Positions 2,499 through 55,672 are shown, numbered from the stretch's first letter. The stretch is 64,000 nucleotides of DNA from an uncultured delta proteobacterium (GCA_963810935.1 CAWEPK010000012.1:1-64000); one strand, 5' to 3'. The notes: a model not told the origin generated them from the sequence alone. A program made the numbers and translations.

Positions 2499-2508
2499 GA
2501 TTTTTTCC

Positions 2509-2961: not shown

Positions 2962-3015
2962 AGGATATGTCCCGGTCCTTACTTTTTTTGCTCTCTGCTC
3001 AAGGCACAGTCCGCC

Positions 3016-3783: not shown

Positions 3784-3835
3784 CAGCACTCACCCCCTTG
3801 TCTTACCTTACCGGTTGACTTCGCTCTCATCAGTC

Positions 3836-6973: not shown

Positions 6974-7041
6974 CTTTTCTCACCTCGTCAGGTTTTGTGG
7001 TCTATGCCATTTCGGGTATCTCACCCGACTTAAAGCTCTCC

Positions 7042-7839: not shown

Positions 7840-7901
7840 CAGTATTTCTTTCCCCTCGCCGGCCCCAAAAGGCCAACGATCCCCCGTCGTACGATTTACG
7901 G

Positions 7902-9053
7902 CTATATCACTTCTGCCAGCACTTCCGTAATGTCCTTTACCTCTATCACGTCGCTGTAATTGAGCACGGCCCTGCTGTCCTCGAAGTTCGTTATGCAATA
8001 GGGACAGGCCGTAACTACTTCTTTCACCCCAAGCGCGACGGCCTCTTCCGTCCGGATGTTGACGAACCGCTCGTTCTTCGGCGTCTCCGCCCATATCCTG
8101 CCTCCGCCCATGCCGCAGCAGAGGGCCTCGTCCCGCGACTCGGAGAACTCGGTAAGCTCGAGGCCGGGCACTTTCGAAAGGACGTTCCGGGGCTCGTCGT
8201 ATATGCCGTTGTGGCGGCCCAGGTAGCAGGGGTCGTGGTAAATTACCTTCTTCTCGTAACCCTTCTGCACTTTCAGCCTTCCCTCGTCCATGAGCTGCGA
8301 GAGATACTGGGAGATATGGATTATCTCGAAGTTAACCATGAACTCCGGGTACTCGTTCTTGAACGTGTGATAGCAGTGCGGGGAAGATACGAGGATCTTC
8401 TTTACCCCGTTGTCGATAAACGTCTTGATGTTCTCTTTGGCGAGGCGCCTGAAGAGGTCTTCGTTGCCTGTCTTGCGGATGCTCTCGCCGCAGCAGCTCT
8501 CCTTCGCGCCCAGTATGCCGAAATCGACCCCGGCCTTCTGGAGCACCGTAGCCGTCGCCCTGGCGACTTTCTTCAGCCTCGGGTCATAGCTAAGGTAACA
8601 GCCGGGAAAATAGCAAACTTCCATGCCTTCGGCAAACGGCTTTACGCCGAGCCCCTCGGCCCAGTCCGCGCGCGTTTTCCGGTCCTCGTTAAAGGGGTTC
8701 CCCTGCGCTGTCAGGCCTGCGCTCACGGTGCGATACGGCTTGACCGAGGCGTGGAACACGTTGTATCCCGTCGCCATCTTGCGGATGGCAACCATATTGT
8801 TTATCTGCTTCACGTCCCTGGGGCACCGCTGCGGGCACTTGCCGCAAGTCGTGCAGCGCCATATATCTTCCTTCTCGATCTCCGAGAGGCCGAATACGGC
8901 CTCACGGATGAGCTTGCGCATGCTGAACCTGTGAACGCGGTTCCAGGGGCAGACGGTGTCGCATTTTCCGCACTGGTAGCAGAGTTTGACAAAGTCACCG
9001 CCCTTGTCTCTTATCTCGTCTATTACCTCTTTAAAGGGGGCTACAGTCTCCAC
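7902..9053 (-). CDS. bamD: BamD, HdrC/HdrB-like (2x[4Fe-4S] plus two CCG domains) Fe-S oxidoreductase
   Basis: CYQCGKCDTVCP, CTTCGKCPQRCP, SCCG, YHDPCYLGR, LCCGMGGG, TACPYC. Confidence 0.9.
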   Translation of the reverse strand: METVAPFKEVIDEIRDKGGDFVKLCYQCGKCDTVCPWNRVHRFSMRKLIREAVFGLSEIEKEDIWRCTTCGKCPQRCPRDVKQINNMVAIRKMATGYNVFHASVKPYRTVSAGLTAQGNPFNEDRKTRADWAEGLGVKPFAEGMEVCYFPGCYLSYDPRLKKVARATATVLQKAGVDFGILGAKESCCGESIRKTGNEDLFRRLAKENIKTFIDNGVKKILVSSPHCYHTFKNEYPEFMVNFEIIHISQYLSQLMDEGRLKVQKGYEKKVIYHDPCYLGRHNGIYDEPRNVLSKVPGLELTEFSESRDEALCCGMGGGRIWAETPKNERFVNIRTEEAVALGVKEVVTACPYCITNFEDSRAVLNYSDVIEVKDITEVLAEVI

Positions 9054-9083
9054 GATTAAGCCTCTCGTTTTATCTTGACGTCC

Positions 9084-9623
9084 TTAGCCCTTCTCGCTCA
9101 TGCGGGCTACGGTGTCGGCCACCTTCTGTAATCCGTACTTGTCCACCATCGACGCGAGACCCGACGCTACGTCCTCCATCTCGACGCTTTCTTCGACTTC
9201 CTCTTCCCTTTCCTCGTAAATCAGCGCGTCGTTGAGGCACCACTGGACGCAGAGCGGTTTCTCCTGCTTCGGGTCGTCCTCGCACATGTCGCACTTCAGG
9301 GGGAGGCCGGAATCCGGCTCCTTGAAGATGTTCCTCGAAGGACACGAGGCCCTGCAGAAGCCGCACTCATCGTATTCTTTTCCGTCGATGACGTACGCGT
9401 CTCTGCCCAGGCACTCCGCCGGCGTATACTCACCCGCGTAGACGGGGAGATAGACGTCCCTGATCGGGTCGCGGATAAGGCGTATGCGCGACCTTGCCGG
9501 GTTGTTGCTGCCGTACTTCGGGTTGGAGTGGAAGGCGGAGCAAATCATCTCGCACGCCCGGCAGCCGTTGCACTTGTCGACGTCAATCTTGATCGTCTTG
9601 ACTATCTTCTTAACTTTGCTCAT
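9084..9623 (-). CDS. bamC: BamC, electron-transferring Fe-S subunit
   Basis: CNGCRACEMICS, CGFCRASCP, KCDMC, CVQWC; overlaps the end of bamB. Confidence 0.92.
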   Translation of the reverse strand: MSKVKKIVKTIKIDVDKCNGCRACEMICSAFHSNPKYGSNNPARSRIRLIRDPIRDVYLPVYAGEYTPAECLGRDAYVIDGKEYDECGFCRASCPSRNIFKEPDSGLPLKCDMCEDDPKQEKPLCVQWCLNDALIYEEREEEVEESVEMEDVASGLASMVDKYGLQKVADTVARMSEKG

Positions 9624-11580
9624 TTTTTATGATCCCTCTCTGTTCCAAGTCTTCGGCAACGTGCCCCAGGTCGAGGCTCTTCAGCGACTCTTTCGTGGGG
9701 ATGCCGTCATTGTCCCAGCCCTTGAACTTGTAGTACGCGTCGAGGAGCTGATTTTCCAGCTCGGGGAACCGTTTCTTCCAGTGGTCTTCCGGCGGCTTCT
9801 CGTCTGCCCTCCGCAGGCCCCTTCTGACGTTGATGGCCCTGACGAGGCTGCGGTTCCGCTTGTAGACAGTCTTCAGGCCCTCTTCGTCTATCTCCACGCC
9901 TGCCCCGGACGAGATGAGCTTCGGGTAATTGTGTATGTGGTACGGGGGCTTTAACGGGAAGGAAGACAGGCCGGCGCAAACGCCCAGGGCGTCGTCCGTG
10001 TAGTGCATCATCTCCTGCCAATCGACGATGTCGACGGACATGTCTACGGTCGGGTAATACGGGTTGGAGCGCTCGCCCCTTAAATCCCAGTCAAGGACAT
10101 ACTGCTTGAACTTCTCGTCCGGCACCTGTACCCAGTCCCTGATGAACTCTTCTTTCTCTTCCTGGGTGGCAAAAGCCGACTGCGGGAACTGCCCTTCGAT
10201 CTGGGTGATATTTATCTTCTCCCCCGTGGCATACATGAGGAAATAGACGGGGTTGAGCATTCCGAGCTTCAGGGGAAGCTGCTCGTGCTTCTTGATGTTG
10301 TTGTGGGCAAATGCTTCCGCACCCTTGCCGATTTTCTGCGCGGCCCAGTGGGTGCCGTCCGCCAGGATGTCGCCTATGCCTTCCCTGCGGACGATCCTGT
10401 CGAGGAGCCAGTAGAACTTGCCCTCGGCGTCCGTCGGGCAGCCCGCGAAGTCGGAGTCGCTCAGGATGCCTGCCTCTCTCAGCTCGAAGGCGAAAGCCAT
10501 GATCTGCGGCGTCGAGAAGCCGTCCACTCCGTACTCGGTGGCGCGCTGGGCGATCTTGAAGCCGAAATCGAGGTCGTCCACAAAGGCGGCCATCGTGTAA
10601 GTCAGCTTCGAGAAACACTTCATCATGTACGTGGAGATGCCCGGCACGGTGATGATCGCGCCGCACTTGATCGGGCAGTTATAGCAGCTTATGAGGCGCT
10701 TGCGGACGTTGAGCTGCGTATCTTTCCACTTCTTCTCGATCTGGTCGTTCCAGAAATCCTTCCGGCGCGTGCGCGCGTTGCCCCACATGAAGTTCTCGGT
10801 GTGCCACTTCTCATCGGTGTGGAGCATTTCCTGCGGCGAGCCGAGGCCCTGCAGAATGGTCATGACGTTGGGCACGGGGTTTTCGTTCCGGAACCTTATG
10901 TACTTGAGGACGTCGTTGCAAAGCTCAAGGAATTCCCCCGGCCTGGCGAGGTTGATATCCTTGGTGCCGCGGACGGCAATCGCCTTTACGCCTTTCGAGC
11001 CCATGACTGCGCCTATGCCCAGCCGGCTGGCGCTCGACCTGCCCTGCTCGATCGACGCCGTGAACACCCTGTTCTCGCCTGCAAGGCCAATAGCGGCGAC
11101 CTGGGCCATCGGCTCCTTCAGCTCCTTGCGGATCAACTCCTGCGTCTCGACCGCCCCTTTGCCCGCAAGGTGGGCTGCGTCGCGGATCTCGATCTTGTCG
11201 TTGTTTATCCAGATGTAGACAAGGCTCGGCGACTTGCCGCGCAGGATGATTTTGTCGTAACCCGCATATTTCATCTCCGGCGCAAAGAAACCACCCATCA
11301 TCGAGTAGCCCATCAGCAAGGTCTGGGGCGAATACGTTGTGATGATGGTCCGGTTGGCGCCCGGCGCAGGCGTGCCGCCGAGAAGTCCGGCGCTGAATAT
11401 GAGCAGGTTATCGGGAGAGAAAGGATCTGTCTCTGCCGGGACCCTGTCCCAAAGCATCTTGGCGTTCGTGCCCAGACCCCCGAGGTGAAGATCGGTATCC
11501 TTCTGGTCCGTCGCTACCCTTTCTACCCCCCCTCGTGAAAGATCGATTTCCAGATTAAAACCGGTTTCTGCGTACCTCAT
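9610..11580 (-). CDS. bamB: BamB, tungstopterin active-site subunit of class II benzoyl-CoA reductase (AOR family)
   Basis: AOR motifs (GGLGTNA, AAIGLAGEN, GAVMGSK, CYNCPIKC) plus BamB-type QEMLHTDEKWH, MKCFSK and ITQIEGQFPQ segments. Confidence 0.95.
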   Translation of the reverse strand: MRYAETGFNLEIDLSRGGVERVATDQKDTDLHLGGLGTNAKMLWDRVPAETDPFSPDNLLIFSAGLLGGTPAPGANRTIITTYSPQTLLMGYSMMGGFFAPEMKYAGYDKIILRGKSPSLVYIWINNDKIEIRDAAHLAGKGAVETQELIRKELKEPMAQVAAIGLAGENRVFTASIEQGRSSASRLGIGAVMGSKGVKAIAVRGTKDINLARPGEFLELCNDVLKYIRFRNENPVPNVMTILQGLGSPQEMLHTDEKWHTENFMWGNARTRRKDFWNDQIEKKWKDTQLNVRKRLISCYNCPIKCGAIITVPGISTYMMKCFSKLTYTMAAFVDDLDFGFKIAQRATEYGVDGFSTPQIMAFAFELREAGILSDSDFAGCPTDAEGKFYWLLDRIVRREGIGDILADGTHWAAQKIGKGAEAFAHNNIKKHEQLPLKLGMLNPVYFLMYATGEKINITQIEGQFPQSAFATQEEKEEFIRDWVQVPDEKFKQYVLDWDLRGERSNPYYPTVDMSVDIVDWQEMMHYTDDALGVCAGLSSFPLKPPYHIHNYPKLISSGAGVEIDEEGLKTVYKRNRSLVRAINVRRGLRRADEKPPEDHWKKRFPELENQLLDAYYKFKGWDNDGIPTKESLKSLDLGHVAEDLEQRGIIKNEQS

Positions 11581-43025: not shown

Positions 43026-44783
43026 CTACGCTTCAGGGTAGCTGATAACGTCGGAGGGACAGGTCGAGGCACACAGCCCGCATGCCACGCAGGTATCCTG
43101 CTTGATGTGGGCTTTCGGGACTACACTCTCCGTCTGCGGGCCGAAGAGGGCTACAGGCACTTGCACAAGCTCGATCTCGATGGCGCCGTGCGGGCACGCC
43201 TCCTTGCACGAGCCGCAGCCGCTGCACCGCTCTTCGTTGACTTCCGGCAGCACCCGCTCCTCTTCGTCGTCAAGCCGCATCTCGCCCATGGCCCCGAGCA
43301 CCTCGCGCGCCTCCCATCTGGCTGGGCGTGGGTGGCGGATGAAGCCGACGTGGTATCGCTTCCTGCCCCATTTCGTCGGCGACCAGCGCAACTGAGGCTC
43401 CGACCTGTAAGCAGAGAGGAATTCTTTACCGCGCACGACGGCAGCGCAATCGTCGAGCCGGATAACCTTATCGACCGCGAAGCGCATCTGCCTGCCGCCG
43501 CCGGAGACGACGACCGGTCCGCTATCCAACGTTACGTCTTCGCCCTCTTCCAGATGTATGAAGAGCACGCCCTCGCGCCTTGCCGCTTCATAGGCAAGCT
43601 CTTCATAAGAAGGCGCGGCCATGTTGCGCGTGAGCACGTAGACGGTCTTCCCTGCTGCGCGCAAGGTTCTCGCAGCATCGATGAACCTGGACGAGAAGAA
43701 TTCGTAGTACATCCGCGTTGCCGGGTCGTCCGTGCCCAGGTAGAAAAGGCAGGAATCGAAAGGACCGTCCGGGATGGAAATCTCCGGAGGCTCTTCCCTG
43801 TAAAGCCTTGCGTCGGGTGACGCAGGCAGCTTGCCGTTACCGCTCGCCCCTTTTGCTGCATCATGGACGGCTGCGAAACCGGCCCCAAAGCCCGTAAGGA
43901 TCGAGTCCTTGATGTTCATCGGCTCTAAGGCCCCGCCGCATGCATAGACGCCTTCCGCATCGGTAGCGAGCGCCCCTTTTTCACCGACGAAGCCGGAGGC
44001 ATTGAGCGAAAAGCCGAGCACGCCCGCAACGTCCGCAAGCGCCGGGTTCGGGCGCAGGCCGATCGCCATCACTACGTAATCGAACGCCTCTTCTTGGAGC
44101 TTGCCGGCCGAAAAATAGCGCAGCCGCACTTCATCGCCGTCAGCCTCGAAGTACCGCGAGTTGGCCCGGACGAACCTTACGCCGCCGTCGCGGTAGATCT
44201 TCTCCATGAAAAACTCGCTCCCGAACAGGCGCAGGTCGTTGTAGAAAACAGTAATGGCCGGGTTCGCCCTCTGGAGCGTCCACTTGATTTCTCTGATCGT
44301 GTAAGAACAGCAGACGGACGAGCAAAGGGGATACTCTTCGCAGCGCGAGCCGACGCACATGACGAAGGCGATACGGTTAAAATCTGCCGGCAGCTCGCCG
44401 TTCCGCTGGTCGATGAGGGCGTCATATTCGAGGCTCGTCAGTACCTTCGGCCCCTTATAGGCGACCGGGTCGTAAGGCAAAAGGCCCGTAGCGACGACGA
44501 CCTTATCCGCATCTATGGCCCGCCCGTCCGACAGAAGAAGGGAAAAGCCGCCGTTTCTTCTCTGCGCCGATACGATCCTTGCCCCGCTGATTACTGTAAG
44601 GCCGGGGTGGCCGCTTATCTCGTCGTGGAACGCCTTGAAGCCGACCCGGCAGTTGGCAATGCGCGCCATGAGGCCGCCGGGGGCGTCCGCCGCTTCGACC
44701 ACGGTGGCCTTATGGCCTTCTTTCAGTATGACTTTAGCGGCTGATATGCCGCTTATGCCGCCGCCCACTATGACTACGTTCAT
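43026..44783 (-). CDS. hdrA: reduced HdrA-like FAD/Fe-S protein
   Basis: GGGISG, CVGSR...CSSVCC, YNDLR, degenerate second module, C-terminal 2x[4Fe-4S]. Real start is ATG 44783. Confidence 0.78.
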   Translation of the reverse strand: MNVVIVGGGISGISAAKVILKEGHKATVVEAADAPGGLMARIANCRVGFKAFHDEISGHPGLTVISGARIVSAQRRNGGFSLLLSDGRAIDADKVVVATGLLPYDPVAYKGPKVLTSLEYDALIDQRNGELPADFNRIAFVMCVGSRCEEYPLCSSVCCSYTIREIKWTLQRANPAITVFYNDLRLFGSEFFMEKIYRDGGVRFVRANSRYFEADGDEVRLRYFSAGKLQEEAFDYVVMAIGLRPNPALADVAGVLGFSLNASGFVGEKGALATDAEGVYACGGALEPMNIKDSILTGFGAGFAAVHDAAKGASGNGKLPASPDARLYREEPPEISIPDGPFDSCLFYLGTDDPATRMYYEFFSSRFIDAARTLRAAGKTVYVLTRNMAAPSYEELAYEAARREGVLFIHLEEGEDVTLDSGPVVVSGGGRQMRFAVDKVIRLDDCAAVVRGKEFLSAYRSEPQLRWSPTKWGRKRYHVGFIRHPRPARWEAREVLGAMGEMRLDDEEERVLPEVNEERCSGCGSCKEACPHGAIEIELVQVPVALFGPQTESVVPKAHIKQDTCVACGLCASTCPSDVISYPEA

Positions 44784-45463
44784 ATTTTGCCGCTCTCTCC
44801 CATCACGTAGAGCAAAAGGTCCGTCAGGTAGATTACTTTCCTGTCGCGAGCGAATGTCGTCAGGGCCATGTGGCACAGGGGGCAGAAGACGACGAGTGTC
44901 CCCGCCGATTTTTCGAGGATCAGCATGGAAAGCTTTTCGGTGGCCCACTTGCCGGCAAAGAACCGGCCGCCGCCGCAGCATTTGTCCTTCACCTTCTCCC
45001 CTTCTATCTCCCCGCCGAAGAAGGAGATCGCCTCTTCCATGACGTTCTTGTTCCTGATGGCCGTCCCTTCCGGCCGAAGGAGTATGCACCCATAATAGGC
45101 CGTGAAAACGCGCCCTTTCAGGTCGCGCTTCGCCGGAAGACGCGAGAGCGCGTCCCCGTCGATAAGCTCCAGCGGGCTCAGCACGTTGAACGCCTTCTCC
45201 GCGTCCGCCTCCTTCAGGTTCTTATAACAGGCAGGGCAAGGCGCGACTATCCCCGCCCCGCTTGCGCCTTCCGCTTTTTGCAGGTTCTCGCCCGATAGTT
45301 TCAACAGCTCCCTGCGGTCGCCGTACTCCATCGCCCCGCAGCAGTTCCAGTCGGGCACGTCTTTCAGGGTGTGGCCCAGCGCAGCGGCAATCCGCCTCAC
45401 GCCCTTATCGAGGACGCGCGCGGAGCCTGTCAGTGAGCAGCCTGGGTAGTAGGCGTAATCCAT
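44780..45463 (-). CDS. hdrB: HdrB-like CCG-domain protein (short, 227 aa)
   Basis: YYPGCS, WNCCG, PCPAC, YYGC, KCCG, FCPLC. Confidence 0.85.
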   Translation of the reverse strand: MDYAYYPGCSLTGSARVLDKGVRRIAAALGHTLKDVPDWNCCGAMEYGDRRELLKLSGENLQKAEGASGAGIVAPCPACYKNLKEADAEKAFNVLSPLELIDGDALSRLPAKRDLKGRVFTAYYGCILLRPEGTAIRNKNVMEEAISFFGGEIEGEKVKDKCCGGGRFFAGKWATEKLSMLILEKSAGTLVVFCPLCHMALTTFARDRKVIYLTDLLLYVMGESGKI

Positions 45464-45922
45464 CTATCTCCTTTTCACCTTATGCGGCAGGTGGAAGCTC
45501 ACGTATCCGGTCCATCTGGTCAGGTGCTTCAGGTAGCCCTCCTTAACGAGGAAACCGAAGGCCCGCATGAATACGAACGGCTCGTACACCCTGCCAAGCG
45601 CGGCCACCGACGTTTTGAACGCCTTCTCGAAAGGCGAGGCGACGTGCAGCTCTTCGCGCAGGGCCATGACTACATCCGGCACGCGCACCTGCCACGGGCA
45701 GACCGAAGTGCAGCGGTAGCAGCCGGTGCAGTAGCGGACAAGGTCGTTATCCGCGTTGATCTCTTCCCCCAGGAACAGTTTCGCAAGCAGCTCCTGCGGG
45801 TTGACGCCGAGACCCAGGTCGTTAACCGTGCAGACGGACGCGCATATCTTGCAGCCGAGGCAGACCGAGAGGTCTTCCCAGCGAACCCCGGCGAACTCAA
45901 CAATGTTGTTAATCTTCTGCAT
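45464..45922 (-). CDS. hdrC: HdrC-like 2x[4Fe-4S] protein
   Basis: CLGCKICASVC, CTGCYRCTSVCP, F..SV...GRVYE. Confidence 0.85.
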   Translation of the reverse strand: MQKINNIVEFAGVRWEDLSVCLGCKICASVCTVNDLGLGVNPQELLAKLFLGEEINADNDLVRYCTGCYRCTSVCPWQVRVPDVVMALREELHVASPFEKAFKTSVAALGRVYEPFVFMRAFGFLVKEGYLKHLTRWTGYVSFHLPHKVKRR

Positions 45923-46931
45923 CGTGAAGCTCGTCCTCCTGGAACGTCAGATAGGGTATGGCCTCGTCGGCGCTGCGTCCCGACATGTAGCCGAACATGC
46001 CTTGCAGCCTTTCCGATATGCCTTTGAAGTAGCTCGCCAGCGGGATGGCCTGCGGGCAGGCCTCCTCGCACGCGCCGCACCCGACGCACGATTGTGACAC
46101 GTGAAACATTCTGACCAGATGAAAAACCTCGCGCCCCTGGGGCATGGCGCATGATCCGGTCCGCAGCACCTTGTTGAGCAGCGCATCGCCCTTCGGCACG
46201 TATTCATCGCCGTTGAACAGGCAGTCGATGCAGTAGCAGACCGGGCAGACGTCGCGGCAGTTCTTGCACATGATGCATGATGCGAAGTCTTTCTCGAAGG
46301 CGGCCATGTCCGTACGGAAAGGGGCATCCTTTGACGCGGCGGCATCAGTCAAAAGCATCTCCGGCGTCCCCTCCGCAGCATCAGTCTCGATGAGACCCAG
46401 GAACGATTCTCCCTTTTCCGTAAACGAGTACGCCCACAGGCTTCCGTCCGAGGCAACGCGTACGCCCGCGTCCCCAACTACCGCCCTGTGTTCCCTGCAA
46501 GTGCGGCAGGCGCTCCGCATCTTGTCGGATGTCTTGAAATATTCGGTGAGGCCCTGCGCGTCGGAAGGCAGGTCCGTGATTTTCTCCTTCGAAGAAACGG
46601 TGCCGGGGCAATCGATGCTCACCGCAATGATGCCCGCGGGCTCTACCTGGGTCAGTTTCGTCAGCTCGACGTACGACCTTATCTCGCAGGGGCGCAGCAT
46701 CAGCACAATCTTTGCGCCCTTTGAAAAGAGCCGCCGCAGATAGAGCGCGCCGTTCACGTCGAAGTAAGGGTTGAAGAGCACGTAATTGTCAACGGCCCCT
46801 TTGAAGATGCGGTGGCGCACGCCCGCAGGCCCCTTGTCAAACCCGAAGACAAGACAGCCCTCTTCGCTGAGGAACCGGTTGAGGGCGCCTGTGAGCGCGC
46901 CGTCTTTAAGCTTTTTTGCCTGCGTCTGCAT
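45909..46931 (-). CDS. FdhB/FrhB-related (FlxC-like) 4Fe-4S protein
   Basis: RPCE, DCPG, RSACRTC, CIMCKNCRDVCPVCYCIDC, FHLVRMFH...CVGCGACEEACP. Confidence 0.75.
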   Translation of the reverse strand: MQTQAKKLKDGALTGALNRFLSEEGCLVFGFDKGPAGVRHRIFKGAVDNYVLFNPYFDVNGALYLRRLFSKGAKIVLMLRPCEIRSYVELTKLTQVEPAGIIAVSIDCPGTVSSKEKITDLPSDAQGLTEYFKTSDKMRSACRTCREHRAVVGDAGVRVASDGSLWAYSFTEKGESFLGLIETDAAEGTPEMLLTDAAASKDAPFRTDMAAFEKDFASCIMCKNCRDVCPVCYCIDCLFNGDEYVPKGDALLNKVLRTGSCAMPQGREVFHLVRMFHVSQSCVGCGACEEACPQAIPLASYFKGISERLQGMFGYMSGRSADEAIPYLTFQEDELHDAED

Positions 46932-47328
46932 GGGCAGCTTCCTTTGTCCCTTCGTACAGGGCGGTCACTTTTTGAACGAAGCGGCGGGCCTCCGCTGCGC
47001 TCACCCAGAAGAGCCGCAGCCTGTCCTTCATGGAGAATGCGTCGAACATCTCCTTCAGGGCCGCGATCTTCCGCCTGGTAAAATAATTTCCCTTGATGAA
47101 ATGGCAATCGCCGGGATGGCAGCCCGCGACAAAGACCGCGTCCGCGCCGTCGAAGATCGACTTTATCACGAACGCCGGGTCCACCCTGCTTGAGCACGGC
47201 ACCTGGACGAGGCGCACCCCATCCGGGTATTTCATCCTGAGGCTGCCCGCCATCTCGGATGCCTTGAACGTGCAGAAGGAGCAGGCAAAACCGACTATCT
47301 GCGGCCGTACCCCGGTCTGTTCTCCCAT
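46906..47328 (-). CDS. mvhD: MvhD-like 2Fe-2S subunit (Cys form)
   Basis: FACSFC, VPCSSRV, GCHPGDCHF, WVSAAE. Confidence 0.92.
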   Translation of the reverse strand: MGEQTGVRPQIVGFACSFCTFKASEMAGSLRMKYPDGVRLVQVPCSSRVDPAFVIKSIFDGADAVFVAGCHPGDCHFIKGNYFTRRKIAALKEMFDAFSMKDRLRLFWVSAAEARRFVQKVTALYEGTKEAAHADAGKKA

Positions 47329-47350
47329 ATTTAAGTTCCCCTCTTATTAT

Positions 47351-49024
47351 TCATATGGCCTCCACGAGGGCCGATATCTCATCGTCTATCGCGCTGTCCA
47401 CATAGCCCCTAAGCCTGATGGCGGACGACGGGCATGTCGAGTTGCACAGGCCGCAGCCCATGCATGCCGCCTCCTCGACGCGGACTACCCGCGCCTCTTC
47501 GTCGAACTTTATCGCCTTCGCGACGCACGCCTTCTCGCACATCCTGCAACCGCTGCACCGCTTTATATCGACGGCAGCGACGAACGGGTCCACCGCTGCC
47601 CACCCCGCGCTTAAAAAACCGTAAAGCTTCATTGCCGAGGCCCTGCCGTGGTTGAGCGACTCTTCCATGTCCTTGGGGCCGGAGCACGTGCCTGCTATGA
47701 ATATGCCCTTGACCGCCGTATCGTACGGCCTGAGCTTTACATGCGCCTCGAGGAAGAACTTGTCCTTGTCGAGGGTGATCTTCATGAGCGACGCGATGGC
47801 CGCGCTGTCCGCAGGCGGCGACATGCCGACGGAGAGCACTGCGAGGTCGAATTCCCTTTCGAACGGCTCGTCGAGTAGCGTATCCTCACCGCGCACCAGC
47901 AACCCTTTCGGGCCGGGCACGATCTCCGCTACGTTGCCGCGCGTAAAAAGCGTGCCCTTCTCCTGCGTATCCTCGAAGAACTCCTCTCCGCCGCGCGGGT
48001 GGGCGCGTACGTCCATGTAGAAACACTCGACGTATGACCCATCGTACTTTTGCTTTACCGCCTCGGCGATGCGCAGGGCGTTGATGCAGCAGACCCTCGA
48101 GCAGTACGGCCTTCCCACCTGCTCGTCTCTCGACCCGACACAATGGAGGATGGCCACCCTGGGCTTCGCTGGCAGGGAAAGGCCCTCCCTTCTTTGCTCG
48201 AATTCAACCGTAGTCATGACCCGCTCGTCTTTGCCGTAGGCAAGCTCGGGTTTTGCTGATGCGTCGAAGGGGGAAAACCCGATCGCTATGATGCAGCCGC
48301 CAGCGGTTACCTCCCGCTCGCCGTCAGGGGTCTGTAAGGTCGCCCTGTAGTTTCCGAAAGCGCCCTCGAAATTGCTGACGGCCGTCGAGGTGAAAACCTC
48401 CACGTTGCTGCGGCCGCGCAATTCCGCTTCCATCTCTTCAATGACTGCGGCTCCGTCCTTCCTGATGGGCCATATATCCCTCAGCGTCCTCACGTGCCCT
48501 CCGAGGACAGGCCCTTTCTCGACGAGATAGACGTGCATGCCCATGTTCGACAGGAAAAGCGCCGCGGACAAGCCTGAGACGCCCCCGCCGACAATCAGGG
48601 CCGATTTCGTGACCTCGACCATCTTTTCTTCGAGGGGTACGTAATGGGCTGCGGAATAAAGACCTGCGCGGATCAGGCGTATGGCCTTTTCCGTGTTGCG
48701 GGCGACGTCGTCGCCCACCCAGGAGCAGTGCTCCCTGATGCCCACCCTGCGGAGCAGAAACGGGTTAAGGTTCGATTTTCGGAGGAGGTCCTTGAAAAGC
48801 TCGTCATGGAGCGACGGCGTGCACGAGGCGATGATTACGCGGTCGAGCCCTTCCTTCTCGATGCTCTCACGTATCATGTCCTGGCCCGGCTCCGAGCAGA
48901 CAAAGGGGTAATCGGATGCGACGATGACGTTAGGGAATGTGCTGAAGTAGTCGCGGACCTTCCGCACGTCAACCGTGTGCTTGATATTGTGCCCGCAATG
49001 GCAGATAAATATGCCTGTCTTCAT
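47351..49024 (-). CDS. hdrA: HdrA-like FAD/Fe-S protein
   Basis: FICHCG, CSEPGQ, SCTP, IREHCSW, GGGVSG, CVGSR...[15 protein letters not shown]-terminal ferredoxin. Start ATG 49024. Confidence 0.9.
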   Translation of the reverse strand: MKTGIFICHCGHNIKHTVDVRKVRDYFSTFPNVIVASDYPFVCSEPGQDMIRESIEKEGLDRVIIASCTPSLHDELFKDLLRKSNLNPFLLRRVGIREHCSWVGDDVARNTEKAIRLIRAGLYSAAHYVPLEEKMVEVTKSALIVGGGVSGLSAALFLSNMGMHVYLVEKGPVLGGHVRTLRDIWPIRKDGAAVIEEMEAELRGRSNVEVFTSTAVSNFEGAFGNYRATLQTPDGEREVTAGGCIIAIGFSPFDASAKPELAYGKDERVMTTVEFEQRREGLSLPAKPRVAILHCVGSRDEQVGRPYCSRVCCINALRIAEAVKQKYDGSYVECFYMDVRAHPRGGEEFFEDTQEKGTLFTRGNVAEIVPGPKGLLVRGEDTLLDEPFEREFDLAVLSVGMSPPADSAAIASLMKITLDKDKFFLEAHVKLRPYDTAVKGIFIAGTCSGPKDMEESLNHGRASAMKLYGFLSAGWAAVDPFVAAVDIKRCSGCRMCEKACVAKAIKFDEEARVVRVEEAACMGCGLCNSTCPSSAIRLRGYVDSAIDDEISALVEAI

Positions 49025-51737
49025 CTGCTTATATACTCCAGGCAGCGCGACGCCGCCTCCCCTGCCGAGGCGACCGTATCGGGGACGTCCTTCGGACCGG
49101 AGGCCATGCCGCAAACAAATATGCCTTCCACGTCCGTCTTCGACGGCGTCATGGCGTCAACTTTTACGAACCCGTACGTGTCCCGCTCGACGGAAGCCAT
49201 CGCGCAGAGATCGGCTGTCTCCGCACGCGGCCTTACACCTGTCGCCAAAATGACGAGATCGACCTCAATTTCCGCAAGCTCTCCGGATAACATGTCCTCG
49301 ACCCTGACGAGAAAGCCGTTCTCTCCCTTCGTCACCTCGCCGGGCAGGCCCCTTATGTAGCGCACGCCCGCCTCCTGCGCGCTCTTGTAAAATTCCTCGT
49401 AGTTCTTACCGTAAGCGCGCACGTCTATATAGGAGACGTAAACCTCCGCGCCCTTTATCCTGTCGAACACGATGCTCGCGTGCTTCGCCGTATACATGCA
49501 GCAGACGCGGGAGCAAAAGCGCGCGCCCGTCTGCCTGTCCCTGGAGCCGACGCACTGGATGAAAAAGAAGCGCTTCGGCTCTTTTCCATTTACGATGATA
49601 TCGCCGCCGGTCGGCCCCGTGACAGAGCAAATCCTTTCGAACTCGATGCCCGTCAACACGCCCTCCAGCCTGCCGTACCCGTATTCCCCCTTTTCGGTCG
49701 GGTCATACAAGTCGAAGCCGGGGGCGAGGATTATGCCGTCGCAGGCGAGGTCTATAGTCTCGTCTTTCATCGTGTAGTCGATGGCCTTAACGTCACAGCG
49801 GCGTGCGCATTCGCCGCATTCGATGCATCCCTCGACCTGCCCCGCGAGGCAGCGGGATGCTTCCCTGCCTGCCGCCTCCGGCCCGTAGGCCAGGCGGACC
49901 TCCCGGAAATCGGTAACCCGCACCTCCGGCGCTTCTTCCGGCACGGACTCGCGCCGCGCCGGTGCGACCTTCGCCTTTAATTCGGCTTTCTCGGCCTCCG
50001 TTAAGCGGCTGCGGCAGCCTCTGCTGCGGCCTCGGCAACGGGAAGCGGCTCTCCCTTCATGTACAGGTCCATCGACGCGGCCGCCCGCTTGCCTGCCGCT
50101 ATGGCATCGATCACGTATGCCGGGCCTGTGGCTACGTCCCCTCCCGCGAACACGCCCGGCCGGTCCGTCGCGCCTGTCGCCGGGTCCGCCTTTATCGTAC
50201 CGTCTTCCGCTATAGATATGGAAAGGGCGGCGGCAAAGGACGTCTGCGGCGATTGGCCGAGTGCCGTTATCGCCATATCCACCGGAAGCCTGAATTCCGA
50301 GCCTGCCACGGGCAGCGGGCGCCTGCGGCCGGTGCGTCCGGCGCGCCAAGCTCCATGCGCACGCACTCGATCTCCGAAAGCTCCCCGTCTACGGCTATGA
50401 ACCGAACAGGCGCGGCCAGGTATTCGAGCGCTATCCCTTCGGCTGCGAGGGCCTCCACTTCTTCGGCTGCTGCGGGCATCTCCGCTTGCGGTCCTCCGGT
50501 AGATGACGGTCACGTCACTACCGAGCCTTCTCGCAGTCCGCGCGCAATCGACAGCCGTATTGCCTCCGCCTATGACGGCCGCGCGCTTGCCCACGGAAAG
50601 GAACTGCGAGCTTTCGACTGCGCGCAGGAACGTGAGACCGTCGATCACGCCGGGAATGTCTTCGCCGGGTACATTCAGGGCGATGCCGCGCGGCGCGCCC
50701 GTCCCGATGAAGACCGAGTCGTAGCGGGAGGCGATGTTATCCAGCTCCAGGTCTTTCCCTATCGCGACACCGCATTCGATGCGGACGCCTTCCCTGCGGA
50801 TGTACTCAATCTCTGCGGCAAGCTCCGACTTGGGCAGCCTATACTCCGGTATGGCGTACCGCAGCATGCCGCCCGGCTCGGGCAGGGCCTCGAAGACAGT
50901 CACGTCATGGCCCGCAAGGGCAAGATCATGGGCGCATGCGAGCCCGGCAGGGCCTGCACCCACCACCATCGCCCTCTTGCCCGTTTTCTGCAACTGCGGC
51001 GGCGCAGGCTGGACAGGCGCAAGGTCCGCGATTGCCCGCTTCACGTCGCGTATCGCAAGGGGCTGGTCGATCTCTCCCCTGTTGCAGACGCCTTCGCAGG
51101 GCGCATAGCAGACCCTCCCGCAAACGGAAGGGAACGGGTTCGTCTGCCTTATCAGCAGGTAGGCTTCCTCGAACCTGCCCTCGCTTGCATGTTTAAGGTA
51201 ACCCGGCACGTTCGTATGCACCGGGCAGGCGGCGATACAGGCCGCGTGGCACTGCCTCGACCTGCGCTTGTCGATGCTCGCCTTGTTGGGGATCGCCTGC
51301 GGGAAGGGGATGTAAATCGCCTTGCGCGGTCCGGTCCCCATGTTGAACTCGCTTTTCATCACAACGGGGCAGAACGCCGAGCACGCGCCGCATGCGTTGC
51401 ACTTCGCCGTATCGACGAAGCGTGATTTTTTGAGGAGCCTGACCGAGAACCCGTTGTCCGATTTTTCAATGGAGACGGGGCGCGTCCACGAGAGGAGGTC
51501 GATATTCTTCTTGAGCGCCACCTCGACCATCTTGGGCGAGAGCGTGCACGTAGAGCAGTCGAGGGTGGGGAAGGTCTTGTCGAGCTGGATCATCCTGCCG
51601 CCGATAGACGGCCCGGCCTCGACCATAGTCACACGGACGCCGCACGAGGCAAGGTCCAGGGCTGCGGTAATGCCCCCGATACCACCCCCCACGACGACGA
51701 CGTGCTTATCCGCCCCTTCCACCCGAACTTCACTCAT
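49021..51737 (-). CDS. hdrA: HdrA/HdrL-like protein with an inserted GltD/NfnB-like NAD(P)H-FAD domain (at least 3 frameshifts near 50485, 50340 and 50005)
   Basis: [18 protein letters not shown], ferredoxin, then CIAACP...[11 protein letters not shown]...GAGPAG...IGGGNTA...GDVATGP, then CIECGEC, CVGSR...CSRVCCMY. Pieces lie in track ORFs 50001..51737, 50267..50479 and 49021..50349. Confidence 0.85.
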
Positions 51738-52669
51738 CCTTTTAAAATATCTTTCATCTTGTCCCGAAGCTTGTTCGCGTCGCCCACGAACCCGAAATGG
51801 GCGTACTGGAAGATAGGCGCTTCAGGGTCCTTATTGATCGCGATGATGCACTCCGAGTCCTTCATCCCCGCGATATGCTGGAACGCGCCGGAGATGCCCA
51901 TCGCAAAATAGACCTTCGGCTTGACGGTCTTGCCCGACGTCCCTACCTGGCGCGGTTTTGGGAGCCATGCCTTGTCGATGACCGGCCTCGACGCGGACAG
52001 CGTGGCCCTGAGCATGTCGGCAAGCTCCTCGTAGGCCGGTATCTCGTCTTTGCTGCCTATGCCCCTGCCGACTGAGAGCAGGAAATCGGCCTTCGTGATA
52101 TCGATGGCCCCTTTCTCTTCCTCGACGTACTCGATGAAGCTGCGTCCTGCGTCGGCCTCTACTGCGTCGAGCATCGTCTCCGCCGCCTGGGCGCCTTTCG
52201 GCGCAGCCTGTTCCTTGAAGCTGCCGCTCCTGACCGTTGCTATGAAGCAGCCTTCATGCGGCTTGAACTCGCCGAATATCTTGTCCGAATAATAGCTCTT
52301 CACGAAAACGCCGTTGGCCGCCTCGAAGCCGCTCACGTCCGTAATAAGGGGCATGTTAAGACTGCCCGCAGCGTATGACGCAAGCTCGATGCCCGAAGAC
52401 GAGCCGGTGAAGAGTATCGCGTCCGGCATGCCGCCGGCATCGATTGCCTTTTGAAGTATGCGGACCATGTTGAGCGGGTTTAAGAAGTCGGTCTCCGGCG
52501 CCTGCGCCCTTATTACGGCGTCGCTCAATTCCCCGCTGCCGCATACCGCGCCCGCCGGGGCGAGCAGCCGCACCTCCTTGCCCAGCAGGCGCGCAAGGCC
52601 GATGGCGTCCAGGTTCCGTTCCTCGAAAACTCCGCGCCTTACCTCTGCGACAACCAGTGCGTAGCTCAT
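51734..52669 (-). CDS. etfA: electron transfer flavoprotein alpha subunit
   Basis: [43 protein letters not shown]. Start ATG 52669. Confidence 0.95.
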
Positions 52670-53445
52670 TGATACACCCCCTTGTCCTTCAGGATGCCGA
52701 GAAGCTCCTTGCACACCCCGTCGGGCTCCCCTTGCAGCATGACGGCGCCGCCCTTCTTCGCGGGGTAGACCCACCTGACGAGGTCGATCATGCCTGCCGC
52801 GCCCTCTTTATATGCGCCTGCCTTGAAGACCTTCCTCTCGACCTTCGACGCCTTCCTGATGCCCATGATCGATACGTAGCGCGGCTCGTTGATCCCGCTC
52901 TGAATGCCGAGGACGCACGGCAGCGCAAGATTGACGCGCTCCTGAAGGCCGCCTTCCAGCTCCCGCCGTATCGTCGCCCGGCCCTGCTCGAAGGCATCGA
53001 TGCCGATCACCATGGAGGCATAGGGCAGCCCCAGCTTTGCAGCGAGGATGCCGCCGACGGACGCGAACTGGTCGTCCTCGGACTGCACGCCCGTAAAGAT
53101 CGCGTCGAAGGAGACGGACTCTTTCTTGAGGAAATCATAGAGCAGGCCGGCCCTCGCCATCGGGTCGTTAAAAGGGTCTTCGGACTCGACGAGGAAGCCG
53201 TCTTTCGCGCCCATCGCGATGGCCCTTCTCAGGACCTCGTCCGATTCGGCGTTGCCCATGGATATCGCCGTCACATCGCCGCCCGCCTTCTCCACTATCG
53301 AGACCGCTGCCTCGACCGCGTAGTTGTCCCAGTCGTTCACCTTGAACGGCACCTTCGAAAGATCGACGCGCTGCCCGTCGTCGACGATGCGCAGCTCCTC
53401 TTCCTGTGTAGCAGGGACTCGCTTCGTGAACACCAACAGGTTCAT
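52666..53445 (-). CDS. etfB: electron transfer flavoprotein beta subunit
   Basis: KRVP, NDWDNYAVE, AIAMGA, GVQSED, RELEGG, NEPRY. Confidence 0.95.
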   Translation of the reverse strand: MNLLVFTKRVPATQEEELRIVDDGQRVDLSKVPFKVNDWDNYAVEAAVSIVEKAGGDVTAISMGNAESDEVLRRAIAMGAKDGFLVESEDPFNDPMARAGLLYDFLKKESVSFDAIFTGVQSEDDQFASVGGILAAKLGLPYASMVIGIDAFEQGRATIRRELEGGLQERVNLALPCVLGIQSGINEPRYVSIMGIRKASKVERKVFKAGAYKEGAAGMIDLVRWVYPAKKGGAVMLQGEPDGVCKELLGILKDKGVYQ

Positions 53446-54537
53446 CTATATGACCTCCATAAGTATCTCTGAAAGCTCCTTGACCGTCTGGCCCTTCTCC
53501 TTTGCCGCGTCCTCCAGGGTCATGAGGCAGAACGGACAGGCCGTCGCTATGATCTCGGCGCCCATCTGCGCCGCATCGGCAGCGCGGACTTCCGCGTTCC
53601 GCAGACCCTTCGTCTCCTCCACCTCGAAGAACATCCTGCCGCCCCCGCCCTCGCAGCAAAGCGACGTCTCCCTCGAACGGCTGAACTCCAACAGCTCCAG
53701 TCCCCCGATGGAGCGCAGCACGTTCCTGGGCTCGTCGAAAACACCGTTCTGCTTGCCCAGGAAGCAGGGGTCGTGATATGCGACCTTATGCTCGTACTTC
53801 CCCTCGATCTTTAAGGCCCCTTCCCCGATAAGCCGGGCGAGGACCTCCGAATAATGGGATACCTTTATCCCAAGGTCTCCGTATTCTTTTTTGAGGGCGT
53901 TCATGCAATGGGGCGAAAGGGCGATGATCTCGCGCACCCCGTATTCCTTGAGGGCCTCGCAGTTCTCCTCGCGAAGCTCGTCGAAGAGGCCCGTCTCGCC
54001 TATCCTCCTGATCTCGTTGCCGCAGCAGGCCTCCTCTTCCCCCAGCACGCCGAACTCATAGCCCGCCTTGTGGAAGAGGGCAGCGACGTTTGCAGGGATG
54101 ACCATGCAGCGGGGGTCGTACGCCTGGATGCAGCACGTGAAAAGGAGCCGTTTCGACGTCGTCTCGCCGACGTGGGGCACATCGAAGCCCGCCTTCTCGA
54201 CCCACGCTCCCCTTTTGGCGCGCGAGCGGCCCCAGGGGTTCTTCTGCACGAAGGTATTTTCCAATGCCTTCTGGACCGATACGGGTATGCGCCCCTCTTC
54301 GACGAGCGAAGACCTGACCTCGATAACGACTTCCGAAGGTTTTACGTCCCTGGGGCACCGGAGCGTGCAGGCGCCGCAGGAGGTGCAGTACCAGGGGATA
54401 GCGGCCTCCACGTCGCGCATGAACTGTCTTTTTCGGACCATCATGCGGATGTTGAAGGCGGTCCTGCCTGCCTCGGGACAGCTCCCGGTGCACCGGCCGC
54501 ACTGTATGCACGTTAGGAGGCGACTGCTAGGCTCCAA
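53446..54537 (-). CDS. soluble BamD/HdrD-like Fe-S oxidoreductase (2x[4Fe-4S] plus two CCG domains)
   Basis: CIQCGRCTGSCP, CTSCGACTLRCP, ACCG, SPHC, YHDPCFLG, LCCEGGGG, TACPFC; no TM helices apparent. Confidence 0.88.
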   Translation of the reverse strand: MEPSSRLLTCIQCGRCTGSCPEAGRTAFNIRMMVRKRQFMRDVEAAIPWYCTSCGACTLRCPRDVKPSEVVIEVRSSLVEEGRIPVSVQKALENTFVQKNPWGRSRAKRGAWVEKAGFDVPHVGETTSKRLLFTCCIQAYDPRCMVIPANVAALFHKAGYEFGVLGEEEACCGNEIRRIGETGLFDELREENCEALKEYGVREIIALSPHCMNALKKEYGDLGIKVSHYSEVLARLIGEGALKIEGKYEHKVAYHDPCFLGKQNGVFDEPRNVLRSIGGLELLEFSRSRETSLCCEGGGGRMFFEVEETKGLRNAEVRAADAAQMGAEIIATACPFCLMTLEDAAKEKGQTVKELSEILMEVI

Positions 54538-55672
54538 GGAGCTTCCTGCCGATCAAAACTTTCTCGACTTCTTTCGTCCCCTCGAAGATCTCGAACACCT
54601 TGGCGTCGCGCCAGTAGTGCTCGACGTCGTATTCCTTCAGGATGCCGTAGCCGCCGTGCAACTGGATCGCCTCGTCCGCGACTTTTACCGCGATCTCACA
54701 CGTGTACCATTTCGCCATTGCGATGAGAGCGGGGTCAACATCTCCCCTGTCGACCGCCGAGGCGGCTCTGTAATAGATGCTTCTCCCCGCTTCCACCATA
54801 GTAGCCATTTCCGCGATCTTGGCCTGGACGATCTGAAGGCCGGACAGGGTCGTCCCGAACGCCTTCCTTTTTTTGACATGGCTTATCGCTTTATCGAGCG
54901 CGCCCTGGGCCGTGCCGATGGCAAGCGAGCACCCGCCCTCGAGCCTGGCGCGGTTGAAAAACTCCATGAGCTGGTAAAAGCCCTTGCCCTCCTTGCCGAC
55001 AAGGTTGCTCTTCGGCACCCGGACCTCTTTGAACGCGATCTCCCCCGTGTCGGAGCACCTGATGGAAAGCTTGCCGTGGAGCTTGCTCGCCTCGTAACCC
55101 GGCCGGTCCGTCTCGACGACGATCGTCGAAAACCTTTCGTGCCGCTTGGGGTTCGTCGGGTCCGTAACGCAGAGGACGACTATGAAGTTCGCGCAGTTTG
55201 CGTTCGTTATGAAGGTCTTGGTGCCCGAAATGACATATTCGTCGCCGTCCGACACCGCCGAGGTCGTCATCGAGGCAACGTCGCTGCCCGCGTCCGGCTC
55301 GGTCGAGGCCATGCCCGCCCGCCAAACTCCTGCGCAAACGGGAGGCAGGTACTTATTCTTTTGTTCTTCAGTGCCGTAGAGGTTGATCATCTGCGTGCCG
55401 AAGTGGCACGCGTTCAGCGTTTGCGCAATGCCCCCGTCTACACGGGCAAACTCTTCGAAGATGAGGCACTGCTCGAAGCTGCCGAGCCCGGCGCCGCCGT
55501 ACTGCTCGGGTATGAAAGCGCCGATAAACCCGTTCTCGGCGGCCTTCTTCCATATTGTGTCGTCGAACTTCTCATTCTCGTCAAGCTCCCTCGCGACGTC
55601 CCTGAATTCTTTTTCGGCGAATTCGCGCGCAGCCTGCCTGATGTCCTTCTGCTCATTCGTCAGGTCGAACAT
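54527..55672 (-). CDS. acyl-CoA dehydrogenase
   Basis: PEQYGG, STEPDAGSD, GTKTFITN, QLHGGYG, RDAK...IFEGT. Start ATG 55672. Confidence 0.95.
   Translation of the reverse strand: MFDLTNEQKDIRQAAREFAEKEFRDVARELDENEKFDDTIWKKAAENGFIGAFIPEQYGGAGLGSFEQCLIFEEFARVDGGIAQTLNACHFGTQMINLYGTEEQKNKYLPPVCAGVWRAGMASTEPDAGSDVASMTTSAVSDGDEYVISGTKTFITNANCANFIVVLCVTDPTNPKRHERFSTIVVETDRPGYEASKLHGKLSIRCSDTGEIAFKEVRVPKSNLVGKEGKGFYQLMEFFNRARLEGGCSLAIGTAQGALDKAISHVKKRKAFGTTLSGLQIVQAKIAEMATMVEAGRSIYYRAASAVDRGDVDPALIAMAKWYTCEIAVKVADEAIQLHGGYGILKEYDVEHYWRDAKVFEIFEGTKEVEKVLIGRKLLGA

What the first reader, a model, noticed from the sequence alone, without database searches (positions are those of the whole stretch)
46906..54537. 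The second cluster is a Cys-only paralogue of the BamD-E-F module 40 kb away
Seen: 53446..54537 follows BamD motif for motif (CPRDV, YDPR, CCG, SPHC, YHDPC.LG..NG..DEPR, TACP.C). 49021..51737 resembles the N-half of BamE, 47351..49024 resembles the C-half, and mvhD follows as bamF follows bamE. Both Sec positions are Cys here (DCSTC vs DCSMU; CSFC vs CHWU). Inference: a reusable D-E-F electron-transfer chassis is docked to BamBC for ring reduction in one locus and to Acd/ETF in the other. The built-in GltD-like domain may replace BamGHI as the NAD(P)H port.
Basis: partly seen in the sequence, partly recalled or inferred. Interest (0 to 1): 0.75.

Follow-up and report, generated by a model that had tools for sequence, protein, structure and literature searches.

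The report
ETF-linked HdrA electron-splitting gene cluster
These genes are part of a ten-gene block kept in fixed order across a class of aromatic-degrading, methanogen-dependent bacteria; the block is a distant cousin, not a copy, of the neighbouring benzoyl-CoA reductase wiring and likely builds a soluble enzyme that splits electron pairs between the fatty-acid electron carrier ETF and NADP+ or ferredoxin.

Summary
The motifs are real, but the genes are not a selenium-free copy of BamD-E-F. Identity to the window's Bam proteins is 33-47%. Trees reject CCG+BamD (AU p 0.012) and HdrL+BamE-N (p 3e-6) as clades. The genome's true cysteine-form bamE-F lies on another contig (77%). The finding is the front of a ten-gene block (CCG, etfB, etfA, hdrL, hdrA, mvhD, fdhB-like, hdrC, hdrB, degenerate hdrA') whose marker gene is in 67 of 68 good genomes of the class. 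The acyl-CoA dehydrogenase is only a loose neighbour. The GltD-like insert sits in the ferredoxin domain that in BCRII faces BamBC, not BamGHI, and 13 genomes lack it. Three frameshifts in hdrL are absent from conspecific short-read contigs. Best reading (0.4): a soluble, reversible HdrA-type bifurcating complex with ETF on the high-potential arm, NADP(H) or ferredoxin on the low arm, and MvhD-FdhB-HdrA'CB as the middle port; direction is unproven. All parts are known (BamDEF-ETF, HdrL loci); I found no paper on this combination. The scan noted the same block before in other genomes.

The parts
54527..55672 (-). Acyl-CoA dehydrogenase (381 aa); loose neighbour, not a fixed member of the block
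   Evidence: Pfam Acyl-CoA_dh N/M/C. Same strand within 1 kb upstream in 3 of 20 fetched loci, anywhere in the fetched flank in 7 of 20.
53446..54537 (-). Soluble CCG protein (two cubane motifs plus two CCG domains), BamD/EMO-like, with the S-P-H-C motif; likely ETF-facing subunit
   Evidence: Pfam CCG x2 and Fer4; 38% to BamD; best PDB hit 9ojn, mycobacterial EtfD, E 4e-54; SPH in 32 of 32 covered loci; own clade, SH-aLRT 100.
52666..53445 (-). EtfB, of the non-bifurcating type by best structural relatives
   Evidence: Pfam ETF; profile scores 1o94 160 bits and 1efp 119 bits above the bifurcating 6fah 101 and 5ol2 91 (the types of these entries are recalled).
51734..52669 (-). EtfA
   Evidence: Pfam ETF_alpha and ETF.
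49021..51737 (-). HdrL: N-type HdrA half (FAD domain, CxxC, inserted ferredoxin, bifurcation-type Lys and Glu) with a GltD-like insert; three indels in this assembly
   Evidence: Frames; indels absent from conspecific contigs; about 900-aa open frames in relatives; Lys in 33 of 33 and CxxC in 32 of 32 covered loci.
49850..51260 (-). Optional GltD-like NAD(P)H/FAD/[4Fe-4S] insert inside the ferredoxin domain of HdrL (approximate limits)
   Evidence: Alignment with insert-less orthologues and BamE; best PDB hits of an intact orthologue are 9bov, NfnA 9n5u and StnC 8oh5, above NfnB/NfnL; absent in 7 of 32 genome loci.
47351..49024 (-). C-type HdrA half (N-terminal CHCG domain, FAD domain, C-terminal 2x[4Fe-4S]; no CxxC, no inserted ferredoxin)
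   Evidence: Alignment to PDB 5odc; 33% to the BamE C-half; Arg in 23 and Lys in 10 of 33 loci at the Lys site.
46906..47328 (-). MvhD [2Fe-2S] adaptor, 140 aa, Cys form, without BamF's C-terminal winged helix
   Evidence: Pfam FlpD only, while BamF also hits HTH_5; Cys in 34 of 34 covered loci.
45909..46931 (-). FdhB/FlxC-like Fe-S protein; no catalytic FdhA or hydrogenase gene in the block
   Evidence: PDB FdhB chains 9t1s_M, 7bkb_E, 8rvu_E; fold search tops 8rvu_E and 7bkb_E.
45464..45922 (-). HdrC-like 2x[4Fe-4S] protein
   Evidence: TIGR03290 hit below its cut-off; Pfam Fer4.
44780..45463 (-). Short HdrB-like protein with both full cysteine sets and no blocking His (CPAC)
   Evidence: Pfam CCG x2; motifs; CPAC in 32 and CPLC in 1 of 33 covered loci.
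43026..44783 (-). HdrA': degenerate HdrA (FAD domain, cluster ligands, partial second domain, C-terminal 2x[4Fe-4S]); Lys replaced by Arg and Glu by Asp, so likely non-bifurcating; class marker
   Evidence: Model pLDDT 86, top fold hit sHdrA 6tjr; Arg 35 of 35, Asp 30 of 31; in 87 of 96 class genomes.
570..11580 (-). Reference BCRII cluster bamB-C-D-(fdhD)-E-F-G-H used for comparison; Sec TGA at 6745 (bamE) and 3729 (bamF)

Best explanation
The ten genes from the CCG protein to HdrA' are a fixed block that likely encodes one soluble, reversible HdrA-type electron-bifurcating complex, predicted to pass the high-potential electron to ETF and the low-potential electron to NADP+ or ferredoxin. Shown: gene content, order, class-wide conservation, domain positions and residues. 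Inferred from the BCRII structure: HdrL and the C-type HdrA pair like the two halves of BamE; the HdrL flavin is the splitting site; the CCG protein sits on it as BamD does and meets ETF; the inserted ferredoxin domain is the low-potential exit, ending in the GltD-like NADP(H) domain where present and in free ferredoxin where absent. More speculative: the mid-potential pair arrives through MvhD and the FdhB-like subunit from the non-bifurcating HdrA'-HdrC-HdrB arm, which would turn over a thiol/disulfide, or from an enzyme encoded elsewhere. I commit to the BCRII direction (ETF as acceptor, low-potential carrier made), with reduced ETF recycled by the EMO-like membrane protein.
For: Order kept in 32 of 35 distinct genome loci, the other 3 cut by contig ends, and complete in 36 of 80 metagenome loci. 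Marker in 67 of 68 good genomes. In BCRII the B-FAD has a conserved Lys, E4 leads to BamD and ETF, and the inserted ferredoxin leads to BamBC. Of the three HdrA-type genes only HdrL keeps Lys, CxxC and the inserted ferredoxin together. The CCG keeps the His that blocks the heterodisulfide site in BamD, SaEMO and EtfD, and its nearest 50%-identity clusters are BamD-sized and EMO-sized CCG proteins. The ETF resembles non-bifurcating ETFs, so any splitting must be at HdrA. The insert resembles the non-bifurcating NADPH domain of StnC. The class needs reduced ferredoxin for BCRII (bamB in 63 of 68) but has Rnf in only 1 of 77 genomes, and an EMO-like protein in 77 of 77. With a donor at -266 to -280 mV, reducing ETF plus ferredoxin is downhill by 4-15 kJ per four electrons (assumed potentials).
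Against: No activity, complex or expression data. The Lys is not diagnostic alone: BamE C-halves of this class also have Lys at the aligned site although that flavin is non-bifurcating in G. metallireducens, and 10 of 33 HdrA2 have Lys. Recycling through EMO needs a quinone, yet mqnA/D was found in 7 of 77 and menD over cut-off in 0 of 77 genomes. A thiol donor at -170 mV would be 3-8 kJ uphill for the NADP+ form and 28-33 kJ uphill for the ferredoxin form. DsrC, the obvious thiol carrier, was found in only 50 of 77. Neighbouring Acd, CoA ligase and TRAP genes fit ETF oxidation at least as well. One metagenome locus (L140) has 10 kb upstream but lacks the first four genes on that strand.
Confidence: 0.4

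Rival explanations
1. Same wiring, opposite direction: the complex re-oxidises ETF from beta-oxidation and BCRII by confurcation with reduced ferredoxin or NADPH, sending the pairs to a disulfide (HdrA'CB) or to CO2/H+ through an FdhA or hydrogenase docked on FdhB. It would be a quinone-free alternative to EMO.
For: The CCG is a membrane-free relative of ETF oxidases. Acd, CoA ligase or TRAP genes often flank the block. Known menaquinone entry genes are missing in most genomes. ETF plus NADPH to a -170 mV disulfide is 3-8 kJ downhill.
Against: ETF plus NADPH cannot reach H2 or formate (29-34 kJ uphill) and ETF plus ferredoxin is 4-9 kJ uphill. The class lacks Rnf to supply ferredoxin and already has EMO-like proteins.
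Confidence: 0.3
2. The GltD-like domain is the two-electron NAD(P)H input, as usually assumed for HdrL, and the block makes two loosely linked units: CCG-HdrL-HdrA-MvhD-FdhB with ETF, and HdrA'CB as a second disulfide-reducing outlet, without tight energy coupling.
For: HdrL was described as an NADH port in sulfate reducers. hdrC-hdrB-hdrA' has the usual three-gene order.
Against: The insert is missing in 13 genomes of at least 6 genera while the rest of the block stays, where fetched, so it cannot be the only input. It sits on the low-potential domain. The ten genes stay together.
Confidence: 0.2
3. A selenium-independent backup of BamD-E-F that can partner BamBC/BamGHI.
For: Cys at both positions in every covered locus, Sec in 14 of 14 bamE and 16 of 16 bamF covered among 20 Bam loci; same domain layout.
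Against: Clades rejected. MvhD lacks the BamI-binding helix. A 77%-identical Cys-form bamE-F-G-H exists on C1 behind a short TGA-ending leader. The block is a class core gene set.
Confidence: 0.03

Closest known systems
BamDEF-ETF part of class II benzoyl-CoA reductase, Geobacter metallireducens (bioRxiv 10.64898/2026.04.10.717634; parts 1-3 of 8 read, plus passages)
   Same: Soluble His-blocked CCG protein, N-type and C-type HdrA halves with one Lys-type flavin and CxxC, MvhD adaptor, ETF as likely partner of the CCG.
   Different: HdrA halves on two genes; separate clades; no BamBC or BamGHI; short MvhD; optional GltD insert; etf genes inside the block; extra FdhB, HdrC, HdrB and HdrA'.
HdrL loci: Desulfobacterium autotrophicum HRM2 locus VIII (PMC2702500; passages and section 18) and HdrABC/HdrL Sfum_0819-0824 of Syntrophobacter fumaroxidans (PMC5947623; passages)
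   Same: HdrA with a glutamate-synthase-like NAD(P)H domain, tandem hdrL/hdrA, mvhD, fdhB-like and hdrABC genes without a catalytic hydrogenase; locus VIII also has an hdrD.
   Different: No etf genes described in those loci; proposed partner DsrC/sulfite reduction; here HdrA' is degenerate and the insert optional. I could not align their sequences.
EMO/EtfD, ETF:(methyl)menaquinone oxidoreductase (bioRxiv 10.64898/2026.08.18.745454, passages; PDB 9ojn)
   Same: Cubane plus non-cubane CCG domain with the His ligand that exchanges electrons with ETF.
   Different: No membrane or heme domain in this CCG; EMO-like proteins form another branch and are encoded elsewhere in the same genomes.
Flx-Hdr (Hdr-Ifo) of Desulfovibrio and Syntrophorhabdus (PMC5736913 and PMC5946492; passages and supplement rows)
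   Same: HdrABC with MvhD and an FdhB/FlxC-like subunit.
   Different: That cassette is a separate locus (G000:C7; FlxA-like gene in 71 of 77 genomes); this block has no FlxA/B and adds ETF, CCG and split HdrA.

Membership tests
BamDEF module of BCRII | Soluble HdrC+CCG fusion with His in the heterodisulfide site and a disrupted distal cluster | tested here: met
   SPHC in 32 of 32 covered loci, as in window BamD; feature.
BamDEF module of BCRII | CCG protein branches with BamD | tested here: not met
   48-row tree, LG+G4 quick; one clade rejected, p-AU 0.012. BamD rows came only from this class plus one database representative.
BamDEF module of BCRII | BamE is one fused HdrA dimer | tested here: not met
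   Two genes in all complete loci examined.
BamDEF module of BCRII | N-half with CxxC, inserted ferredoxin and Lys; C-half with N-terminal domain and C-terminal ferredoxin | tested here: met
BamDEF module of BCRII | HdrA N-half branches with BamE N-half | tested here: not met
   p-AU 3.4e-6, 22 rows, mixture model, HdrA' left out; the C8 and C16 fused proteins are closer to BamE.
BamDEF module of BCRII | BamF with winged-helix extension and Sec19 | tested here: not met
   140 aa, FlpD only, Cys; the tree test alone is borderline, p-AU 0.052.
BamDEF module of BCRII | Linked to bamBC and bamGHI | tested here: not met
   No bam gene hit in the 20 fetched loci L032-L051.
BamDEF module of BCRII | Electron transfer from the CCG subunit to ETF | not testable with these tools
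   Needs an assay with purified proteins.
HdrL-type HdrA | HdrA with an inserted GltD-like NAD(P)H-binding domain | tested here: met
   met in the window and most relatives, absent in 13 genomes.
HdrL-type HdrA | Co-located mvhD, often fdhB and hdrABC | tested here: met
   feature.
Canonical bifurcating HdrABC (for hdrC-hdrB-hdrA') | HdrB with two full cysteine sets and an open site | tested here: met
Canonical bifurcating HdrABC (for hdrC-hdrB-hdrA') | HdrA with the flavin Lys/Glu and an inserted ferredoxin | tested here: not met
   Arg 35 of 35, Asp 30 of 31; top fold hit sHdrA 6tjr. Site located by counting in the 5odc alignment; the names Lys409/Glu356 are recalled.
EMO/EtfD | Membrane heme-b domain fused to the CCG domain | tested here: not met
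   363 aa with no such domain; the genome's EMO-like protein has PF02665.
Flx-Hdr | FlxA NADH dehydrogenase gene in the cluster | tested here: not met
   None in the block; a separate locus exists.
Bifurcating ETF (Bcd-Etf, CarCDE) | EtfB of the second-FAD/NADH type | tested here: not met
   Ranks non-bifurcating entries first and shares their GxQxxD stretch; indirect, and entry types are recalled.
QmoAB | Branching with QmoA/QmoB | not tested

The most novel reading that the evidence does not exclude
The block is a self-contained three-terminal machine in which a thiol/disulfide handled by HdrA'CB is the middle partner rather than the high-potential sink, ETF is the high arm and NADP(H) or ferredoxin the low arm. 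It would close the electron budget of a whole class of syntrophs that lacks Rnf and, mostly, known menaquinone synthesis.
Probability: 0.2. Interest if true: 0.75.

Novelty: new variant of a known kind. Interest (0 to 1): 0.5.

Why it matters
How Rnf-lacking syntrophs such as Syntrophorhabdus balance ETF, ferredoxin and NAD(P)H while degrading aromatics is unresolved. A near-universal ten-gene block that ties ETF to an HdrA flavin is a concrete candidate, and natural variants with and without the NADP(H) insert give a built-in test of which port does what. It would also show that the BamD-ETF interface of BCRII is a general design. It does not show a selenium-free benzoyl-CoA reductase.

Tried and rejected
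Complex prediction of the CCG with EtfA and EtfB: no verdict (score 0.68, one control 0.51), so not used. Atlas searches gave no answer. Sequencing runs: no RNA holder listed. Nobu et al. 2015, the Syntrophorhabdus genome paper, is not held and may mention this block; the 2021 review of HdrA(BC) modules by Appel et al. is recalled, not seen. Extended Data and supplements of the two bioRxiv preprints were not seen and bear on CCG phylogeny. Literature searches that found no description of this gene combination. A second clade test (CCG + BamD + C8 CCG + P0124) did not finish. Cluster look-ups of 10 CCG neighbours gave few names, so most outgroup rows are unlabelled. The first HdrA tree warned of long-branch joins and was rebuilt without HdrA'. 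Rejected: real pseudogenisation of hdrL; Acd as a fixed subunit; the cluster as the only ETF outlet for lack of EMO. A selenium-type leader before this block was looked for only by eye in 340 bases and none was seen. Reach outside the class was not settled: pattern scans find close relatives only.


Full report
Observation. The named motifs are present. The CCG protein aligns with window BamD at 38%, the two HdrA genes with the N- and C-halves of BamE at 33-47%, and MvhD with BamF at 35%. DCSTC and CSFC replace the TGA-bearing motifs of bamE and bamF. [quoted passage not shown] The hdrL gene is broken by three indels in this assembly. Short-read contigs of near-identical strains from four runs of one study carry the compensating letters at all three places, and relatives have open frames of about 900 codons, so I treat the breaks as assembly errors; other genes in the window look split in the same way.

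The unit is larger than reported. Downstream of mvhD come an FdhB-like gene, hdrC, a short hdrB and a degenerate hdrA'. Of the 23 genome loci found with HdrA', 22 are close relatives, and those whose titles name a family or order are nearly all Syntrophorhabdaceae or Syntrophorhabdales. After dropping 7 duplicates from 42 loci, 32 of 35 show all ten genes in the order CCG-etfB-etfA-hdrL-hdrA-mvhD-fdhB-hdrC-hdrB-hdrA', and 3 are cut by contig ends. Among 80 metagenome loci 36 show all ten; the others show a trailing part of the same order, one of them (L140) despite 10 kb of upstream sequence. All loci were chosen through HdrA', so these counts are conditional on it. HdrA' is found in 87 of 96 genomes of the class and 67 of 68 good ones; bamB in 63 of 68. 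The acyl-CoA dehydrogenase is directly upstream in only 3 of 20 fetched loci; CoA ligase, TRAP and two-component genes are other frequent neighbours.

Relation to BamDEF. The genome has several CCG, HdrA and MvhD paralogues (ten FlpD matches), and others are closer to Bam: a CCG-HdrA-MvhD-AOR locus on C8, a fused HdrL on C16 and a 77%-identical bamE-F-G-H on C1. In a 48-row CCG tree (chosen from 161 rows) this CCG family is its own clade on the same side as BamD-sized proteins, but BamD's sister is the C8 protein; forcing CCG with BamD is rejected (p-AU 0.012). For the second FAD segment, HdrL with BamE-N is rejected (p-AU 3e-6), while the unrooted tree still places HdrL next to the N-type halves and HdrA2 next to the C-type halves with moderate support. 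MvhD groups with the MvhD of the fused HdrL locus, and the test against BamF is borderline. The block is thus a deep relative of the same design, not a recent or sister paralogue. The trees hold only sequences of this class and unlabelled database representatives.

Selenium. Cys is fixed in the block (32 of 32 and 34 of 34 covered loci; 37 and 46 motif hits in metagenome loci), and Sec in Bam loci of the class (14 of 14 and 16 of 16 covered, of 20). But 5 of 7 HdrA CxxC motifs in this genome are Cys-only and G. metallireducens BamE has Cys59-Cys62. The C1 copy has DCSMC and CNWC and a short upstream frame ending in TGA; it is the better candidate for a selenium-free backup.

Which port is which. 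In the BCRII structure (bioRxiv 10.64898/2026.04.10.717634, parts 1-3 read), BamGHI feeds BamE through BamI and BamF's winged helix, the bifurcating FAD has a Lys, the high-potential electron goes by E4 to BamD and ETF, and the low-potential one by the inserted ferredoxin to BamBC. Here the GltD-like domain is inserted between the two halves of that ferredoxin domain, so it occupies the BamBC side. It is optional: by my count of the listed rows, 13 genomes have a whole insert-less protein of about 430 aa and 70 match only the part behind the insert, 62 of them in frames of 860 codons or more. Its closest structures are the NADPH domains of 9bov, NfnA and StnC; StnC's is non-bifurcating (PMC10482914, passages). 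The BamGHI side is taken by a short MvhD and the FdhB-like protein, whose fold matches the FdhB/ElpB chains of methanogen Hdr complexes. Only HdrL keeps Lys, Glu, CxxC and the inserted ferredoxin; HdrA2 mostly has Arg and lacks CxxC; HdrA' has Arg and Asp and folds most like sHdrA. The CCG keeps the site-blocking His seen in BamD, SaEMO and EtfD, whereas HdrB has both cysteine sets and no His. The ETF ranks with non-bifurcating ETFs.

Mechanism. These features point to a complex with ETF on the high arm, NADP(H) or ferredoxin on the low arm and MvhD-FdhB, probably wired to HdrA'CB, in the middle. This wiring is inferred (about 0.65); the direction is open. For the BCRII direction: Rnf in 1 of 77 genomes, EMO-like proteins in 77 of 77, and favourable energetics from a donor near -270 mV. 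For ETF oxidation: flanking beta-oxidation genes, and mqnA/D in 7 of 77 and menD in 0 of 77, although this genome has four UbiA-family genes. With NADPH as low partner the reverse reaction cannot reach H2 or formate, only a disulfide. The potentials are assumed: ETF +16 mV, ferredoxin and NADH from an abstract, the rest recalled. DsrC is in 50 of 77 genomes, so it cannot be the only thiol partner. The Lys signature is not sufficient on its own.

Known systems. HdrL with mvhD, fdhB and hdrABC was described in D. autotrophicum locus VIII (PMC2702500) and S. fumaroxidans (PMC5947623), without ETF. The Flx-Hdr (Hdr-Ifo) cassette discussed for Syntrophorhabdus is another locus; a supplement table lists two HdrABC sets per genome without further description. 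Eight literature searches found no account of this block, but the key genome paper was not available. Passages of PMC5861303, PMC7382037 and PMC5109826 added nothing on it. The scan's earlier notes describe the same block in other genomes and similar CCG-ETF-HdrA operons in other phyla; these are unchecked leads.

Verdict. The block is a new variant of known HdrA/BamDEF-type modules, core to one class of syntrophs and untested. Interest 0.5.

Noticed in passing
G000:C1:1-6700 (L028): Cys-form bamE-F followed by bamG-H, with a short upstream reading frame ending in TGA; a likely selenium-free backup.
   Followed up: partly
L055, L057, L060, L063, L064, L065, L067, L070: BCRII loci where a short BamF is followed by only a BamH-like C-terminal ferredoxin (one fused frame read in L055) and no bamG/H; L055 and L070 continue into an EMO-like gene and etfBA.
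   Followed up: partly
G000:C8:523000-531000 (L024): CCG, fused HdrA dimer, MvhD and a tungsten AOR-like gene: the closest non-Bam relative of BamD-E in this genome.
   Followed up: partly
G000:C16:130000-136100 (L025): A second HdrL, 1469 aa, fully fused (N-half, GltD insert, C-half), after an hdrB-like gene and before a Sec-type mvhD, near CO dehydrogenase/acetyl-CoA synthase-like genes.
   Followed up: partly
class-wide, 77 genomes at least 90% complete: EMO-like protein in 77, but mqnA/D in 7, menD in 0 and Rnf in 1: the quinone for EMO is unexplained.
   Followed up: partly
window 7042-8094, 19106-20453, 56413-57172, 57169-58672: fdhD, malic-enzyme-like, histidine kinase and response regulator genes appear split by single-base indels, as expected of a long-read assembly.
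   Followed up: no
window 41822-43006 (+): 394-codon frame right behind the block with no Pfam or NCBIfam hit.
   Followed up: no
L032, L033, L034 downstream of hdrA': ABC transporter genes and a probable prenyltransferase (label from reading the sequence, no family search) follow the block on the opposite strand in these three small genomes.
   Followed up: no
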